Shown piece by piece: positions 23,348-26,770 of a DNA stretch of 32,000 nt. The position numbers and the translations under genes were made by a program. Numbering within the stretch: position 1 is the stretch's first letter; every line of letters starts with the position of its first letter. Source of the DNA: Candidatus Heimdallarchaeota archaeon (GTDB lineage: Archaea; Asgardarchaeota; Heimdallarchaeia; Heimdallarchaeales; Heimdallarchaeaceae); the NCBI GenBank assembly GCA_030668875.1, contig DAOVER010000027.1, positions 7,408 to 39,407 of the forward strand. The letters run 5' to 3'. A model generated the notes under the pieces. That model worked only from the letters and a program-made list of their open reading frames with translations. It was not told where the DNA came from and ran no database searches.

Positions 23348-23591
23348 TTCAGTTAACCATAATAATTCACTCTTCAACAGACACAGCCCGTTTCCTTCCC
23401 TTCTACGTCACTTTTTCTTTTCCCCCTTTATATATTAAACGATTAAGCTAATGATCTAAATCTTATAGATCTGTTTTAACCCTGAATTTGCATTTTGCTC
23501 ATTCAGGTATTTTACTTAACAAACTGCTTATTCATAGATCGTGAACATAGAGTTTAAGTAAATTTAAACTGATGCTGTTAGTTACATCAAC

Positions 23592-23599
23592 TTTATAAT
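23592..23599 (+). promoter_or_regulatory. Candidate TATA box of the four-gene operon
   Basis: TTTATAAT 20-27 nt upstream of ATG 23619; short inverted repeats (GTTTAA/TTAAAC, TGATG/CATCA) just upstream could be operators. Confidence 0.4.
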
Positions 23600-23618
23600 T
23601 GTATTTCTATTCTTATAA

Positions 23619-24248
23619 ATGAACATGTCAAATTCAGGGTTAGATTTGATAATTCTTTTATTATCCGAAATTTCAAATAATCATATTATTGGCAAACTTA
23701 AATTCCATAAACTATTATTTTTGCTAATAAACGAAGGGGGATCAGAAGATATTGAAGAAATAATCTCCTTCAAGCCATATAAGTTTGGTCCATGGTCTCC
23801 GGAACTAGACCCACTACTCCAATTAATGGAAGACGAAAAAATTATTGAAATAAAAAACATAAAAACTGATGCTGAATATTTGTATGAGGACCATGAAAAT
23901 GACAATTTGAAAAAGTATGAACTTACAAAAATCGGAATTAAAATTGGTCATGAACTTAAGAAAATTCACGAAAATAGACTAAAAGGCATCAATTATATAA
24001 TCACAAAATATTCGCACTTAAAGAATGAAACTCTACTAAGGTATGTTTATACCTCTTATCCTGGATTTAAAGAAAAATCTATTATTAAAGACAAAGTTTC
24101 CAAACTATCAATTGAAGAAGAATATAGACTTATTTTTCCAAATGATGAAATAGATGAGAACCTTTTCTCACTAGTAGGTATTATCAAACCAATGTCTTTA
24201 GAAGAGGAAAAACAAGTAATAGACAGATTAGTACTAGGAGGAAACTGA
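23619..24248 (+). CDS. Panacea/SocA (DUF4065)-like antitoxin with C-terminal extension
   Basis: GKLKFHKLLFLL and FKPYKFGPWSPEL match the KLxKLLY...F.....GP signature; directly upstream of a PIN toxin (0-nt gap). Confidence 0.7.
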   Translation: MNMSNSGLDLIILLLSEISNNHIIGKLKFHKLLFLLINEGGSEDIEEIISFKPYKFGPWSPELDPLLQLMEDEKIIEIKNIKTDAEYLYEDHENDNLKKYELTKIGIKIGHELKKIHENRLKGINYIITKYSHLKNETLLRYVYTSYPGFKEKSIIKDKVSKLSIEEEYRLIFPNDEIDENLFSLVGIIKPMSLEEEKQVIDRLVLGGN

Positions 24249-24665
24249 GTGCTTTTTATAGATGTGAATGTTATAAATGATGTTCTTGGTAAACGAAGAG
24301 GATGGGAACATAGTCTTAAAATTCTTAACAGTAGTAAAATGGGTGAATATGATTATGGAATTTCAGCTCTTACAGTATTTTTTTTGGAAGGATATCTACG
24401 AAATAACAAACCCATTTTCAGTCAAATCCAGATAAGACAAAAGATTGGAGAAATAATTGAATTTATTAAAATTTTAGCCTTAGATTCAGATATCTTATCA
24501 AATGCACTGTCGTCAGATTTCCATGATTTTGAGGACGCAATACAATATCATACTGCTAAAAAACATGATTGTTCAGCAATAATAACGAGAAATATTAAGG
24601 ATTTTACCAAGGCAAAAGGTATTGAAATTTGGACACCAGAAGATTTTCATAGGTCGAGGATGTAG
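24249..24665 (+). CDS. vapC: PIN-domain (VapC-like) ribonuclease toxin
   Basis: FIDVNV, DFHDFEDAIQY, ITRNIKDF, IWTPEDF; 138 aa; GTG start immediately after the upstream TGA. Confidence 0.92.
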   Translation: MLFIDVNVINDVLGKRRGWEHSLKILNSSKMGEYDYGISALTVFFLEGYLRNNKPIFSQIQIRQKIGEIIEFIKILALDSDILSNALSSDFHDFEDAIQYHTAKKHDCSAIITRNIKDFTKAKGIEIWTPEDFHRSRM

Positions 24666-24666
24666 C

Positions 24667-25095
24667 ATGAAGGAATCATTGTTGAAGCGCCATTTAATTG
24701 AATACTTAGATAAGAAGGGATACAAATATTTGACTGAAGTTCCTTTTTTAGAAAGAAGAATAGATATTGTGGGGGGTAAAAAAGAAAAGACTTACTCTTT
24801 TGAGCTCAAAGTTGCCAATTGGAAAAGAGCAATTCAACAAGCCTTATCAAATTTGCTTTGTGTAGATTATTCAAACATTGCCATGTTTAAAAGCAAAGTA
24901 CATCTACTTAATCTTGAAATGTGCAAAGAATTGGGAATAGGAGTACTATCTATTGACGAAACAGGTAAAATTGAAAATATCTTAGACTCACAACAGTCAA
25001 GATTAATTAACCCATCACTATATAATAAAATATCAGAACAAATTGAGGGGTATAATGGTCTCCAAACTATATTATCGTTTCAATCTAGCAAATGA
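24667..25095 (+). CDS. Small PD-(D/E)xK restriction-endonuclease-fold protein (142 aa)
   Basis: TEVPFLERRIDIVG...SFELKVANWKRAIQQA: E, D, ExK and QA elements intact. Real start is ATG 24667, 1 nt after the vapC stop (the track's 24622 start lies inside vapC). Confidence 0.8.
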   Translation: MKESLLKRHLIEYLDKKGYKYLTEVPFLERRIDIVGGKKEKTYSFELKVANWKRAIQQALSNLLCVDYSNIAMFKSKVHLLNLEMCKELGIGVLSIDETGKIENILDSQQSRLINPSLYNKISEQIEGYNGLQTILSFQSSK

Positions 25096-26377
25096 AAAAA
25101 AAATCTTCAGAACTACTAAATCAAAATATCATGGATTAGTAATAGGGGCACACATTGGTGCATACTCTTCTACTTGGATTTCAAGTTTTTTAAGAAAATT
25201 ATCTAAACCATATTTTGTTGATCCAATGTCATACATGTTTGCATTAGACCCACCTCCAGTAAAAGATGTTTTTTGCATTGCAGATGACAAAGAATCATAC
25301 CTTGCTCTTAGTAACACATACAACTCATCAATTCAAAAAACTGTCCAAAAAAGACCTCTAAATCCAATAGACTTCATGAAAGAAGGTAATCCAGACAAAG
25401 AACTTATAAGAGATTTTCTTCAAAATCGCTTTATATTTCAAGAAACTATTGATGGAATAAATCCAGCTCAAAAAAGGATTTCTGAATATTTCCAATTTGA
25501 TTCTTTGAAAAATGAACTGAGAATAGATGAAGAAACTGAGGATTGTGAATTAGAATTTTTTTCAATCCCATATTTCTACTTTAGATCTCTAAATGATCCT
25601 TGGTATGAGTTAAATCAAATATTTTACAAAGAATCCAAAAGTATCAAGAAAAATAGACCTAAATATTCCTTTTTGAGTTTTGACAAAGATATTTTAATAG
25701 AAGAAGATAATGTTGAGACATTGTTTAAAAATTATAGTGATTCTGAAGGAATTGTTCTCTGGGTTCATGATTTCAAACCAAGAACTGATTCTGAGATTTA
25801 CTTAAATTCTATGATTAACTTCATCAATCTATTTGCTGAAAAAGAAATTCCATGTATTAACCTTTATGGCGGATACTATTCATGTTTACTTACTAAAATA
25901 GGCTTAGATGGATATTGTAGAAGCATAGGATATGGCGATAAAAAGCAAATTTCACATGTTGCAGCAGGTGGAGGTTCTCCTGAAAGATTTTATGTAAAAG
26001 AGATTCATAGAAGTTTATCAAAAAACAAGGTCCGATCATTCTATAGTAAAAATAGGAATTTGATGTGTACTTGTTCGTCTTGTAAAGATGTAAGAGTAGC
26101 GAATAATTTAAAATCTGATACTATTACAAATGTAAGTAGATTTTTTGATTCAATAGATTACATTGAAGATTCAAGAGCGCATTTCTCAAATTCACATACT
26201 TCGGAAAGAAACGAAATACACCACGAAAACCTGAAAGATATTATTGTAAGATTAAGGAAGGAAGAAAACAATGCAAAAATGCTAAACGTTCCTTATTTTC
26301 TAGGTGAGGATATCAGTTTTTATGAACGATGGAGAAATAGTCTAGCACAATATGAATTGAAAAGTAAGGATACATGA
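25055..26377 (+). CDS. Uncharacterised alpha/beta (probable TIM-barrel) protein with CxCxxC..H site, tentatively tRNA-guanine transglycosylase / phage beta-protein-like
   Basis: CDS is clear (440 aa, ATG 25055 with GAGGGG upstream, 41-nt overlap with the nuclease gene). Motifs YFVDPMSY, IPYF, GIVLWV, NLYGGYYS, IGYGD, GGGSPERFY, CTCSSC, HFSNSH. The fold call is inference. Confidence 0.6.
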   Translation: MVSKLYYRFNLANEKKIFRTTKSKYHGLVIGAHIGAYSSTWISSFLRKLSKPYFVDPMSYMFALDPPPVKDVFCIADDKESYLALSNTYNSSIQKTVQKRPLNPIDFMKEGNPDKELIRDFLQNRFIFQETIDGINPAQKRISEYFQFDSLKNELRIDEETEDCELEFFSIPYFYFRSLNDPWYELNQIFYKESKSIKKNRPKYSFLSFDKDILIEEDNVETLFKNYSDSEGIVLWVHDFKPRTDSEIYLNSMINFINLFAEKEIPCINLYGGYYSCLLTKIGLDGYCRSIGYGDKKQISHVAAGGGSPERFYVKEIHRSLSKNKVRSFYSKNRNLMCTCSSCKDVRVANNLKSDTITNVSRFFDSIDYIEDSRAHFSNSHTSERNEIHHENLKDIIVRLRKEENNAKMLNVPYFLGEDISFYERWRNSLAQYELKSKDT

Positions 26378-26586
26378 GGGAAGTTTCCTTGAGTTCTTGC
26401 TCAGAAAGTAACTTAATAATGCACTATAGTTATAATATCTAATCTTTGCAAATCACTCAGAGATTAATAAAAATCTCTCTTTTTCATTTTTTCCTTGTTT
26501 CTCAGCAAATACATCACTCAGAACTAATTGATTATACTTATATTCAATTAACAAAATGACATACATTATTTAAAACAAAAATGATT

Positions 26587-26750
26587 CAAAGAATATCACG
26601 AATCTCTTACTTATTTCTTACTTTCTAGCTTATGTTTGAGATAATTGTTGGTTTTTTGTTCATTATATTCCTCTTTATTTGCAAGAAGTTGACTAACAAA
26701 GTCAAGATCGTTTTTATCCAATATACCTTCTTTTATGAGCTTAAAACCTA
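26587..26750 (+). repeat. ~165-bp direct repeat, copy A (copy B at 30358..30522)
   Basis: Manual alignment: about 20 differences including one indel in 165 positions (~88% identity). Confidence 0.95.
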
Positions 26751-26760
26751 CGTTTTTCAT
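26611..26760 (-). pseudogene. 3'-terminal fragment (49 codons) of an iron-sulfur flavoprotein gene
   Basis: MKNVGFKLIKEGILDKNDLDFVSQLLANKEEYNEQKTNNYLKHKLESKK* matches the C-terminus of 30389..31114 at 35/41 aa; the first ~190 codons are absent. Confidence 0.85.
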
Positions 26761-26770
26761 AATATCATGT

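What the first reader, a model, noticed from the sequence alone, without database searches (positions are those of the whole stretch)
23619..26377. Four-gene operon coupling a Panacea-VapC toxin-antitoxin pair to a PD-(D/E)xK nuclease and a TGT-like zinc/TIM-barrel protein: candidate undescribed defence or nucleic-acid modification system
Seen: four same-strand genes with gaps of 0, 1 and -41 nt, one upstream TATA candidate, intact PIN and ExK catalytic residues, and CTCSSC followed 33 and 38 residues later by His. Established: tRNA-guanine transglycosylases bind zinc through CxCxxC..H on a TIM barrel; the paralog DpdA inserts 7-deazaguanines into DNA in the Dpd restriction-like system; small PD-(D/E)xK genes paired with beta-protein-like genes (sce7726/sce7725 type) occur in defence neighbourhoods without known mechanism. 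Inference: the last two genes form a base-exchange/base-excision plus nicking module, and the TA pair is a guard or abortive-infection arm co-transcribed with it. The operon looks AT-richer by eye than housekeeping genes in the window (not computed).
Basis: partly seen in the sequence, partly recalled or inferred. Interest (0 to 1): 0.82.

Follow-up and report, generated by a model that had tools for sequence, protein, structure and literature searches.

The report
Mobile toxin cassette with TGT-fold sensor
Four tightly packed genes in this Asgard archaeon form one mobile cassette, found across archaea, bacteria, plasmids and viral contigs, that links a toxin and its inhibitor to a small nuclease and an unannotated zinc-binding relative of the tRNA base-swapping enzyme TGT, and it is most likely a virus-defence system distantly akin to phage P4's gop-beta-cII.

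Summary
There are four same-strand genes with gaps of 0, +1 and -41 nt, all under purifying selection.

- **g1** is a divergent Panacea-domain protein.
- **g2** is a PIN RNase.
- **g3** is a PD-(D/E)xK nuclease with invariant E..D..ExK, and a distant relative of the sce7726 family, which includes P4 cII.
- **g4** belongs to a family of 627 clusters that has no Pfam, NCBIfam or PADLOC model. Its model (pLDDT 93) has the TGT fold (Z 20.8 to ArcTGT). The family keeps the TGT zinc site CxCxxC..H (hhalign E 3.6e-6).

The cassette recurs in about 24 loci from many phyla. g1 and g4 are nearly always present, and g3 is usually present. g3 is fused to g4 in two lineages. The output gene varies: PIN, a 3-TM protein or a SIR2-like protein. 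In other variants an ECF sigma factor sits upstream, or a kinase is fused to the barrel.

Only the g1 copies that sit next to a PIN gene carry a C-terminal tail.

My reading is an abortive-infection-type conflict system. A nuclease/TGT-fold module would sense the invader and control a Panacea-held effector. Function and chemistry are untested.

It resembles P4 gop-beta-cII and the "TIM-B" systems of a 2026 preprint in logic. However, g4 is not a Beta_protein (PF14350) member.

This scan had already noted TGT-fold proteins in archaeal toxin-antitoxin cassettes on other DNA.

The parts
23379..23618 (+). Conserved upstream leader and promoter region of the cassette. It contains a TATA-like TTTATAA at 23592-23598, 21-27 nt before the g1 ATG, so the mRNA is probably leaderless or nearly so.
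   Evidence: The 3043-bp block that is 93.3% identical to the G016 copy starts at 23379, and the flanks beyond it are unrelated. Sequence read.
23619..24248 (+). g1: a divergent Panacea (SocA/PanA-like) domain protein of 209 aa. The core is about residues 1-160, followed by a C-terminal tail (about 160-209) that is found only where the next gene is a PIN.
   Evidence: Pfam SocA_Panacea E 0.013 for this copy; 11 of 18 family members match, best E 8e-8. PADLOC PDC-M19A E 6e-12 and the DarG C-terminal region E 6e-6. Tail/PIN co-variation. dN/dS 0.28.
24249..24665 (+). g2: a PIN-domain RNase of 138 aa, the toxic output of this copy of the system.
   Evidence: Pfam PIN_3 E 3.3e-8 (34.8 bits, cut-off 27) and PIN E 3e-5. 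This position holds a PIN in 10 loci, a ~180-225 aa membrane protein (three hydrophobic segments where analysed) in about 12, and other outputs elsewhere. dN/dS 0.14.
24667..25095 (+). g3: a small PD-(D/E)xK nuclease of 142 aa, distantly related to the sce7726 family (P4 cII type). Catalytic residues are E3, D33, E46 and K48, plus W52 and Q58.
   Evidence: These residues are invariant in 18 homologs. NCBIfam sce7726_fam E 0.0034 for this copy; 7 of 18 members match, best E 4.1e-10. Fused to g4 in P0063 and P0148. dN/dS 0.19.
25055..26377 (+). g4: a zinc-binding TGT-fold (beta/alpha)8 barrel protein of 440 aa, with a C-terminal hairpin and a Zn/helical subdomain. It belongs to an unannotated family. 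It overlaps g3 by 41 nt.
   Evidence: AF2 model pLDDT 93.2. Z 20.8 to ArcTGT 1iq8_A and about 20 to QTRT1. Foldseek top hits are all TGT. The Zn subdomain aligns to ArcTGT with hhalign Prob 87.5%, E 3.6e-6. 627 cluster representatives at E<=1e-3. No Pfam, NCBIfam or PADLOC hit. dN/dS 0.17.
26378..26418 (+). Short conserved 3' end of the cassette. Similarity to the related copy stops here.
   Evidence: The blastn block ends at 26418 and the alignment decays after about 26430.

Best explanation
The four genes form one horizontally mobile operon. It belongs to a widespread, so far unnamed conflict system directed against viruses or other mobile elements, of the abortive-infection type.

Shown here:
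- The cassette is a discrete conserved unit.
- g1 (Panacea-like) and g4 (Zn-binding TGT-fold barrel) are its near-constant core.
- g3 (sce7726-like PD-(D/E)xK nuclease) almost always accompanies g4 and is fused to it in two lineages.
- The remaining gene is a swappable output: a PIN RNase here, elsewhere a 3-TM membrane protein or a SIR2-like protein. In other variants an ECF sigma factor sits upstream, or a Ser/Thr kinase is fused to the barrel.

Inferred:
- g2 is the growth-arresting effector.
- g1 holds g2 inactive. Its C-terminal tail would be the PIN-specific plug, and its Panacea core would dock on the g4 module.
- g3 and g4 act together on nucleic acid. The TGT-like pocket would flip out and recognise, exchange or excise a base, probably a guanine or 7-deazaguanine-type base, in invader DNA or RNA. 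g3 would cut there.
- Engagement of this module would release the effector through g1.
For: **Conserved gene order.** g1-[output]-g3-g4, with overlapping or abutting genes, occurs in about 22 of 24 distinct loci. These come from Asgard (Thor-, Heimdall-), Thermoplasmata, Bathyarchaeia, Wolframiiraptor, Planctomycetota, Acidobacteriota, Elusimicrobia, Chloroflexia, Eremiobacterota, an Arthrobacter plasmid and IMG/VR contigs.

**Discrete mobile unit.** The block 23379-26418 is 93% identical to a copy in a congeneric genome whose flanks differ. The gene was found in only 3 of 23 other genomes searched in the genus.

**g4.** It has the TGT fold with the TGT zinc site. Its near-invariant polar residues (R8, D56, Y60, Q129, Y173, Y271, K297, R311, Y313) lie at the C-terminal ends of the modelled barrel strands and on the hairpin.

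**g3.** Its catalytic residues are invariant, it is homologous to the sce7726/P4 cII family, and it occurs fused to g4.

**Variable outputs typical of defence systems.** These are PIN or a 3-TM protein, a SIR2_2-like protein, an ECF sigma factor with an N-terminally extended g1, and a kinase fusion with a convergent g3.

**g1 tail.** It is present only in loci with a PIN.

**Selection.** All four genes are under purifying selection.

**Precedent.** P4 gop-beta-cII combines a toxin, a TGT-related barrel and an sce7726 nuclease. It protects against lambda and P1 (PMC9122126) and is triggered by a phage gene (10.1101/2023.04.06.535777). A preprint predicts the same logic for TIM-B systems.
Against: There is no experimental or expression evidence for this family.

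g3 and g4 match no PADLOC model.

The flanks of 19 loci are mostly housekeeping or unrelated genes. A handful of the 76 neighbours match defence families such as NsnA, Cas6, a type II REase, PD-T4-2 and PDC-S70, so defence-island enrichment is weak at best.

I found no invariant Asp where the TGT nucleophile would sit on strand 8. The nearest conserved acidic position, 295, is E or D in only 95 of 131 sequences. Classical transglycosylation is therefore doubtful, and the residue mapping rests on secondary structure rather than a superposition.

This copy departs from the family consensus at four conserved positions (226, 242, 290, 381).

Minimal g1+g4 variants without a nuclease or toxin (L027, L075) fit a sensor-adaptor model. 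They fit a plain PanA-toxin pair equally well.
Confidence: 0.55

Rival explanations
1. This is the TIM-B-type reading. g4 does not read nucleic acid. It is a constitutive enzymatic negative regulator that keeps the output off, either by making a small nucleobase-derived product or by covalently modifying a protein (g1 or the effector). The second route would resemble the TGT-like enzyme that modifies the N-terminus of a CBASS cyclase. Infection would interrupt this activity and release the effector. g3 would be a second effector.
For: This model is proposed for Beta_protein/TIM-B systems in preprint 10.64898/2026.10.19.760177. Genetics show that P4 beta neutralises Gop (PMC9122126). g1 and g4 co-occur even without g3. 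The g4 pocket residues are conserved.
Against: A dedicated inhibitor, g1, already exists, and its tail co-varies with the PIN. The g3::g4 fusions point to a shared nucleic-acid substrate. g4 shows no sequence relationship to the Beta family.
Confidence: 0.15
2. This is a plain addiction or toxin-antitoxin module that stabilises mobile DNA and has no antiviral role. g4 could itself be a toxin, for example a tRNA- or DNA-damaging base-exchange or glycosylase enzyme, neutralised by the Panacea protein g1. PIN and the 3-TM protein would be additional toxins.
For: Panacea antitoxins pair with many unrelated toxins (PMC8832971, listed). Minimal g1+g4 loci exist (L027, L075). The cassette occurs on mobilizable plasmids. 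Flanking genes are mostly not defence genes.
Against: SIR2-like, membrane, sigma-factor and kinase outputs attached to a constant core are typical of sensor-effector immune systems, not of simple TA pairs. A conserved nuclease fused to g4 is not needed for addiction. The nearest characterised analogue, gop-beta-cII, does protect against phage.
Confidence: 0.15
3. This is a Dpd-like modification-restriction system. g4 would insert a modified base into the host's own DNA as a self mark, and g3 would cut unmodified DNA. The Panacea/PIN pair would be a linked addiction module.
For: g4 has the TGT fold and zinc site, as does the DNA transglycosylase DpdA; this comparison with DpdA is from established knowledge. 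The best viral structural match is an archaeal-virus TGT-like protein. The genome has a canonical ArcTGT, and archaeosine tRNA modification uses the base preQ0 (established knowledge), so that base should be available; I did not search for the preQ0 synthesis genes.
Against: There is no PADLOC DpdA match. No DpdB-like ATPase, DpdC or deazaguanine synthesis gene lies in or next to the cassette in any locus. The TGT nucleophile Asp is not clearly conserved. The 142-aa nuclease has no recognisable specificity domain. Swappable toxic outputs are not expected in a modification-restriction system.
Confidence: 0.08
4. g4 is a housekeeping paralog for tRNA modification or DNA repair that merely sits beside a TA pair.
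For: The only support is the TGT fold.
Against: The distribution within the genus is patchy (3 of 23 other genomes searched). A canonical ArcTGT is encoded elsewhere in the genome. The Pfam TGT model does not match g4. The gene is strictly linked to g1 and g3 across phyla, and it occurs on plasmids and viral contigs.
Confidence: 0.03

Closest known systems
Phage P4 gop-beta-cII defence system (DefenseFinder Rst_gop_beta_cll) and the 'TIM-B systems' of preprint 10.64898/2026.10.19.760177
   Same: Both combine a toxic effector, a TGT-related TIM barrel and an sce7726-type PD-(D/E)xK nuclease. g3 is a detectable homolog of the sce7726 family, to which P4 cII belongs. Effectors are swapped around a constant barrel: 2TM proteins, sirtuin and others in TIM-B; PIN, 3-TM and SIR2-like proteins here. 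A convergent, overlapping nuclease gene is seen in P4 and in the Priestia kinase-fusion locus.
   Different: g4 does not match Pfam Beta_protein PF14350 or NCBIfam sce7725. It shows no profile-profile similarity to the P4 beta family. It keeps the TGT CxCxxC..H zinc site, whereas no Cys is invariant or nearly invariant in my Beta alignment. It is about 85 aa longer. The nuclease is small (142 aa against 264), co-directional and sometimes fused. A Panacea-domain gene is an added constant component.
tRNA-guanine transglycosylases (ArcTGT, bacterial Tgt, QTRT1; Pfam PF01702) and the DNA transglycosylase DpdA
   Same: Both have a (beta/alpha)8 barrel with a C-terminal hairpin and a Zn subdomain (Z 19-21, about 300 residues aligned at 3.3-3.7 A). 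The zinc ligands align by profile (E 3.6e-6). A near-invariant Asp (D56), followed four residues later by an aromatic residue, lies at the end of strand 3, where TGT has its D-S-G-G-[YF] motif. This last point is an inference from the model's secondary structure.
   Different: There is no match to the TGT HMM or to PADLOC DpdA. Identity is 6-11%. There is a large helical insert between strands 3 and 4. No clear counterpart of the nucleophile Asp was found. The gene is not housekeeping: it is patchy, mobile and always linked to g1 and g3.
Panacea (PanA/SocA, PF13274) antitoxin-toxin pairs and VapBC-type PIN modules
   Same: g1 lies upstream of a toxin-like gene, and the toxin family is exchangeable while g1 stays. 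A C-terminal tail is present only with a PIN partner, which recalls VapB tails.
   Different: g1 is a divergent subfamily; this copy scores below the Pfam cut-off. It is tied to a nuclease/TGT-fold module that classical PanAT pairs lack. In two loci it carries an N-terminal extension and follows an ECF sigma factor instead of preceding a toxin.

Membership tests
TGT superfamily (Pfam PF01702; ArcTGT, Tgt, QTRT1, DpdA) | (beta/alpha)8 barrel with a C-terminal Zn-binding subdomain | tested here: met
   Model pLDDT 93. VIA-align Z 20.8 to 1iq8_A over model residues 1-438, and the top 50 entries are all TGTs. The top Foldseek matches are TGT structures, with other TIM-barrel enzymes appearing lower in the list.
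TGT superfamily (Pfam PF01702; ArcTGT, Tgt, QTRT1, DpdA) | Zinc ligands CxCxxC followed by His | tested here: met
   C338, C340, C343 and H376 are conserved in 121-130 of 131 sequences. They align to the ArcTGT motif with hhalign Prob 87.5%, E 3.6e-6.
TGT superfamily (Pfam PF01702; ArcTGT, Tgt, QTRT1, DpdA) | Match to the family HMM above its gathering score | tested here: not met
   No PF01702 hit for g4 or for 20 relatives. The PF01702 scan of the whole genome at E<=10 finds three other loci but not g4. No PADLOC DpdA hit.
TGT superfamily (Pfam PF01702; ArcTGT, Tgt, QTRT1, DpdA) | Catalytic Asp pair: general acid/base on strand 3, nucleophile on strand 8 | tested here: inconclusive
   D56 (128 of 131) ends modelled strand 3. 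No invariant Asp follows strand 8, and position 295 is E or D in 95 of 131. No coordinates were available for a superposition.
TGT superfamily (Pfam PF01702; ArcTGT, Tgt, QTRT1, DpdA) | Base-exchange activity on tRNA or DNA | not testable with these tools
   This needs biochemistry.
TIM-B / Beta_protein (Pfam PF14350; NCBIfam sce7725) | Match to the family HMM or profile | tested here: not met
   No PF14350 hit for g4 or 20 relatives, nor in the whole genome at E<=10. No sce7725 hit in NCBIfam for 21 members. hhalign against a 28-sequence P4-beta alignment gives Prob 0.25%.
TIM-B / Beta_protein (Pfam PF14350; NCBIfam sce7725) | Operonic coupling of a TGT-related barrel to an sce7726-type nuclease and a variable toxic effector | tested here: met
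.
sce7726 family (NCBIfam NF033832), for g3 | HMM score above the curated cut-off (70 bits) | tested here: not met
   This copy scores 17.3 bits, E 0.0034. 7 of 18 family members match with best E 4.1e-10, so it is homologous but outside the curated family.
PD-(D/E)xK nuclease superfamily, for g3 | Catalytic E...D...ExK core | tested here: met
   E3, D33, E46 and K48, plus W52 and Q58, are invariant in 18 sequences.
Panacea / SocA domain (Pfam PF13274), for g1 | Match to the family HMM | tested here: inconclusive
   This copy scores 16.8 bits against a cut-off of 25.7. 11 of 18 homologs match, best E 8e-8. PADLOC PDC-M19A E 6e-12.
Panacea / SocA domain (Pfam PF13274), for g1 | Direct neutralisation of the adjacent toxin | not testable with these tools
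   Only indirect support: the tail is present solely with PIN partners.
PIN domain (Pfam PF13470 / PF01850), for g2 | HMM above cut-off and the acidic active-site residues | tested here: met
   PIN_3 scores 34.8 bits (cut-off 27) and PIN 25.0 bits (cut-off 23.6). D5, E47, D96 and D118 were read in the translation.
Dpd 7-deazaguanine DNA modification/restriction system | DpdA together with the DpdB ATPase, DpdC and restriction genes in one cluster | tested here: not met
   No DpdA match. None of these partner genes is in the cassette or among the Pfam families listed for its flanks in 19 loci.

The most novel reading that the evidence does not exclude
The g3-g4 pair, fused in some lineages, is a new kind of invader sensor. 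In this reading a TGT-fold protein that has lost base exchange uses its base-flipping pocket to read 7-deazaguanine-type or other hypermodified bases in viral DNA, and its partner nuclease cuts there. This would be restriction of the type IV kind, aimed at the very modification that viruses make with TGT-like DpdA enzymes. The Panacea protein would transmit the engagement to interchangeable outputs: a PIN RNase, a membrane pore, a SIR2 NADase, a sigma factor or a kinase.
Probability: 0.12. Interest if true: 0.85.

Novelty: new variant of a known kind. Interest (0 to 1): 0.62.

Why it matters
TGT-fold proteins are only now being recognised as parts of prokaryotic immunity. Examples are DpdA, the CBASS-associated TGT-like enzyme and the predicted TIM-B proteins.

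This family is large (627 clusters at 50% identity) and spans archaea and bacteria, including an Asgard genome, plasmids and viral contigs. It has no model in Pfam, NCBIfam or PADLOC.

It keeps the ancestral zinc site, so it may bridge true TGTs and the P4 beta family. Its many architectures (nuclease fusion, kinase fusion, sigma-factor variant, and PIN, 3-TM or SIR2-like outputs) offer a ready-made set of natural experiments on how a base-recognising barrel is wired to an immune output.

It also places the hyperpromiscuous Panacea domain in a multi-component system rather than a two-gene TA pair.

Tried and rejected
- **AF2 with a 3-sequence alignment.** pLDDT 31; discarded and repeated with 131 sequences.
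- **Word-based homolog search for g4.** It found only 2 proteins; the exhaustive search was needed.
- **Profile of the g4 family against PDB sequences.** Only a non-significant hit to the lysine 2,3-aminomutase Zn region (E 0.013).
- **Profile of the g3 family against PDB sequences.** Nothing meaningful.
- **hhalign of g4 against single P4 beta and against a Beta alignment.** No similarity.
- **Forced or greedy hhalign of the barrel against ArcTGT.** Low confidence outside strands 7-8 and the Zn region, so it was not used to map catalytic residues.
- **Complex prediction of g4 with g3.** 'No answer' (score 0.02). This counts neither for nor against binding.
- **RNA sequencing runs.** No RNA holder was listed for the cassette, so co-transcription rests on gene spacing only.
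- **tblastn against the phage collection.** No match.
- **Neighbours of the partial relative P0002.** They are not homologs of g3.
- **Terminal repeats.** I looked for repeats that would mark a transposon-like element. There is only a 15-nt, 80%-identical direct repeat near both ends (23390 and 26383), which is probably chance.
- **Bacterial promoter/terminator scanner.** Not used, because the host is an archaeon.


Full report
**What is in the window**

Four + strand ORFs lie at 23619-24248 (g1, 209 aa), 24249-24665 (g2, 138 aa), 24667-25095 (g3, 142 aa) and 25055-26377 (g4, 440 aa). The gaps between them are 0, +1 and -41 nt.

A TTTATAA lies 21-27 nt before the g1 ATG. The host has three eukaryote-type actin genes, so it is an Asgard archaeon.

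The operon has 28-31.5% GC, but so does the whole stretch from 20.5 to 28 kb. The AT-richness is therefore not specific to the operon.

**Family assignments**

- **g2** passes the curated cut-offs of Pfam PIN_3 and PIN.
- **g1** scores below the SocA_Panacea cut-off on its own. However, 11 of 18 homologs match, with best E 8e-8. It also hits PADLOC PDC-M19A and the C-terminal part of DarG.
- **g3** has invariant E3, D33, E46, K48, W52 and Q58 in 18 homologs. It is a distant relative of NCBIfam sce7726: E 0.0034 for this copy, and 7 of 18 homologs match with best E 4.1e-10.
- **g4** has no hit in Pfam, NCBIfam or PADLOC, and neither do 20 of its relatives.

**What g4 is**

An exhaustive HMMER search found 627 cluster representatives at E<=1e-3, mostly 400-450 aa long.

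With a 131-sequence alignment, AF2 gave a confident model (pLDDT 93.2, pTM 0.92). Comparison with known structures gave these results:

| Search | Result |
|---|---|
| Foldseek, PDB | top hits are tRNA-guanine transglycosylases |
| VIA-align, PDB | Z 20.8 to ArcTGT 1iq8_A; Z about 20 to QTRT1; about 300 residues aligned over the whole model |
| Foldseek, viral (BFVD) | best match is a TGT-like protein of a Sulfolobales virus |

C338, C340, C343 and H376 are conserved in 121-130 of 131 sequences. They align with the ArcTGT CxCxxC..H motif by profile-profile comparison (Prob 87.5%, E 3.6e-6).

Other near-invariant residues are R8, D56, T59/Y60, Q129, P172-Y173-F174, Y271-G272, K297, R311 and Y313. 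In the model they lie at the C-terminal ends of the barrel strands and on the C-terminal hairpin. That is where TIM-barrel enzymes, TGT included, have their active site. This placement is my inference from the secondary structure.

D56 followed by Y60 at the end of strand 3 recalls the TGT D-S-G-G-[YF] motif. I could not find an invariant Asp at the strand-8 position of the TGT nucleophile.

The genome has a normal ArcTGT elsewhere, and the Pfam TGT model does not hit g4.

**The cassette is conserved and mobile**

The window shares a 3043-bp block (23379-26418, 93.3% identity) with a congeneric genome. The flanks of that copy are different. Between the two copies all four genes have dN/dS of 0.14-0.28. 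Among the 23 other genomes of the genus that were searched, only 3 have a g4 homolog.

I examined loci from genome, metagenome, plasmid and viral-contig collections.

- g1 accompanies g4 in all of about 24 distinct loci except one (L009).
- g3 accompanies g4 in all but three (L009, L027, L075).
- In two lineages g3 is fused to the N-terminus of g4 (P0063 and P0148; hhalign Prob 99.8%). In those loci the fusion gene is preceded by a g1 homolog and a membrane protein.

The second position is variable:

| Output | Where |
|---|---|
| PIN | 10 loci |
| ~180-225 aa membrane protein (three hydrophobic segments where analysed) | about 12 loci |
| SIR2_2-like protein downstream of g4, with g1 and g3 convergent | two viral contigs |
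| ECF sigma factor upstream of an N-terminally extended g1, with no g3 | L027 and L075 |
| Ser/Thr kinase fused to a g4-like domain, with a convergent, overlapping g3-like gene | a Priestia plasmid |

The last arrangement echoes the convergent cII gene of P4.

The g1 C-terminal tail is present only where the partner is a PIN.

Flanking genes are heterogeneous, with only a few defence-family matches.

**Relation to known systems**

Phage P4 carries gop (the toxin), beta (annotated 'beta family protein', the Pfam Beta_protein family PF14350) and a convergent cII gene, which is annotated as sce7726 family.

- gop-beta-cII protects against lambda and P1 (PMC9122126).
- It is triggered by a phage accessory gene (10.1101/2023.04.06.535777).
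- An October 2026 preprint (10.64898/2026.10.19.760177) recognises Beta_protein as a TGT-related barrel, 'TIM-B'. It describes TIM-B as coupled to many alternative effectors and to an uncharacterised restriction-endonuclease-fold protein. It predicts that TIM-B regulates the effector negatively.

The present cassette shares that logic, and its nuclease is homologous. However, g4 is not a Beta_protein member:

- no PF14350 or sce7725 HMM hit for g4 or its relatives;
- no profile-profile similarity to a Beta alignment;
- an intact TGT zinc site, whereas the Beta alignment has no invariant or nearly invariant Cys.

The constant Panacea partner is also new to this theme.

**How it probably works**

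I favour a sensor-adaptor-effector arrangement, with confidence 0.55.

- g3 and g4 form a nucleic-acid-directed module. The natural fusions argue for a shared substrate.
- g1 holds the output in check, with its tail acting on the PIN.
- Engagement of the g4 module releases the output.

Every functional step here is inferred. What is shown is the anatomy, the conservation, the fusions and the swapping of outputs.

The rivals are:

| Rival | Confidence |
|---|---|
| TIM-B-type enzymatic negative regulation acting on a protein or a small molecule | 0.15 |
| A plain PanA-toxin addiction module, in which g4 may itself be a toxin | 0.15 |
| A Dpd-like modification-restriction system | 0.08 |
| A housekeeping paralog | 0.03 |

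**Limits**

- There are no expression data.
- There is no verdict on whether g3 and g4 bind each other.
- No structural superposition was available for mapping the catalytic residues.
- The neighbourhood sample of about 24 loci was drawn partly through a conserved peptide pattern, so it may be biased.

**Earlier notes of this scan**

- One note described the PIN/Panacea pair with a VapB-like tail on this same stretch (e1-5454179).
- Two notes described TGT-fold proteins in archaeal toxin-antitoxin cassettes on other DNA (e1-703162, e1-1373817).

I did not test whether those proteins belong to the same family as g4.

Noticed in passing
L001:6766-9212 (same protein also in L010 and L002): A congeneric genome carries a 403-aa protein (P0002). 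Its last ~140 residues (the Zn/helical subdomain) are 52-53% identical to g4 residues 298-438. Its N-terminal 260 residues are unrelated and look, by language-model features only, like viral radical-SAM/DUF5131-type proteins. It follows two different small genes and sits directly beside a NosD-like beta-helix gene. The window's cassette also has a beta-helix gene as its next full-length neighbour. This suggests cassette swapping or recombination at a hotspot.
   Followed up: partly
window 23477-23490 and 23629-23642: A perfect 14-nt inverted repeat pairs an upstream segment with codons 4-8 of g1. In the 93%-identical copy, 13 of the 14 pairs survive, and two of the three changes become G-U wobbles. 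If transcription starts further upstream, for example after the TATA-like element at 23428-23437, this could occlude the g1 start.
   Followed up: partly
window 23390-23404 and 26383-26397: A 15-nt direct repeat (80% identical, starting GTTTCCTT) lies just inside each end of the conserved 3-kb block. It may be chance, or it may be a remnant of the insertion event.
   Followed up: no
window 26378-26770 versus L003:4742-7790: In the related genome, three extra full-length genes lie between the cassette and the beta-helix gene: a NIPA-type Mg transporter, a methyltransferase and an MBL-fold protein. The region is a variable hotspot.
   Followed up: partly
L027:4429-7311 and L075:68-2835: This is a three-gene variant: an ECF sigma factor, then a g1-like protein with a ~100-aa N-terminal extension (possibly anti-sigma-like), then g4, with no nuclease and no toxin. 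It suggests that the g1/g4 pair can drive a transcriptional output.
   Followed up: partly
L078:3789-6458 (Priestia megaterium plasmid p6_CACC119): A 677-aa Ser/Thr kinase carries a g4-like C-terminal domain. Its 3' end overlaps a convergent g3-family nuclease gene that is annotated as hypothetical. The geometry matches that of P4 beta and cII.
   Followed up: partly
window 25055-26377: This copy of g4, and its 94%-identical relative, depart from the family consensus at four well-conserved positions: N226 (usually D), P242 (E), S290 (G) and H381 (R). The zinc ligands and D56 are intact.
   Followed up: no
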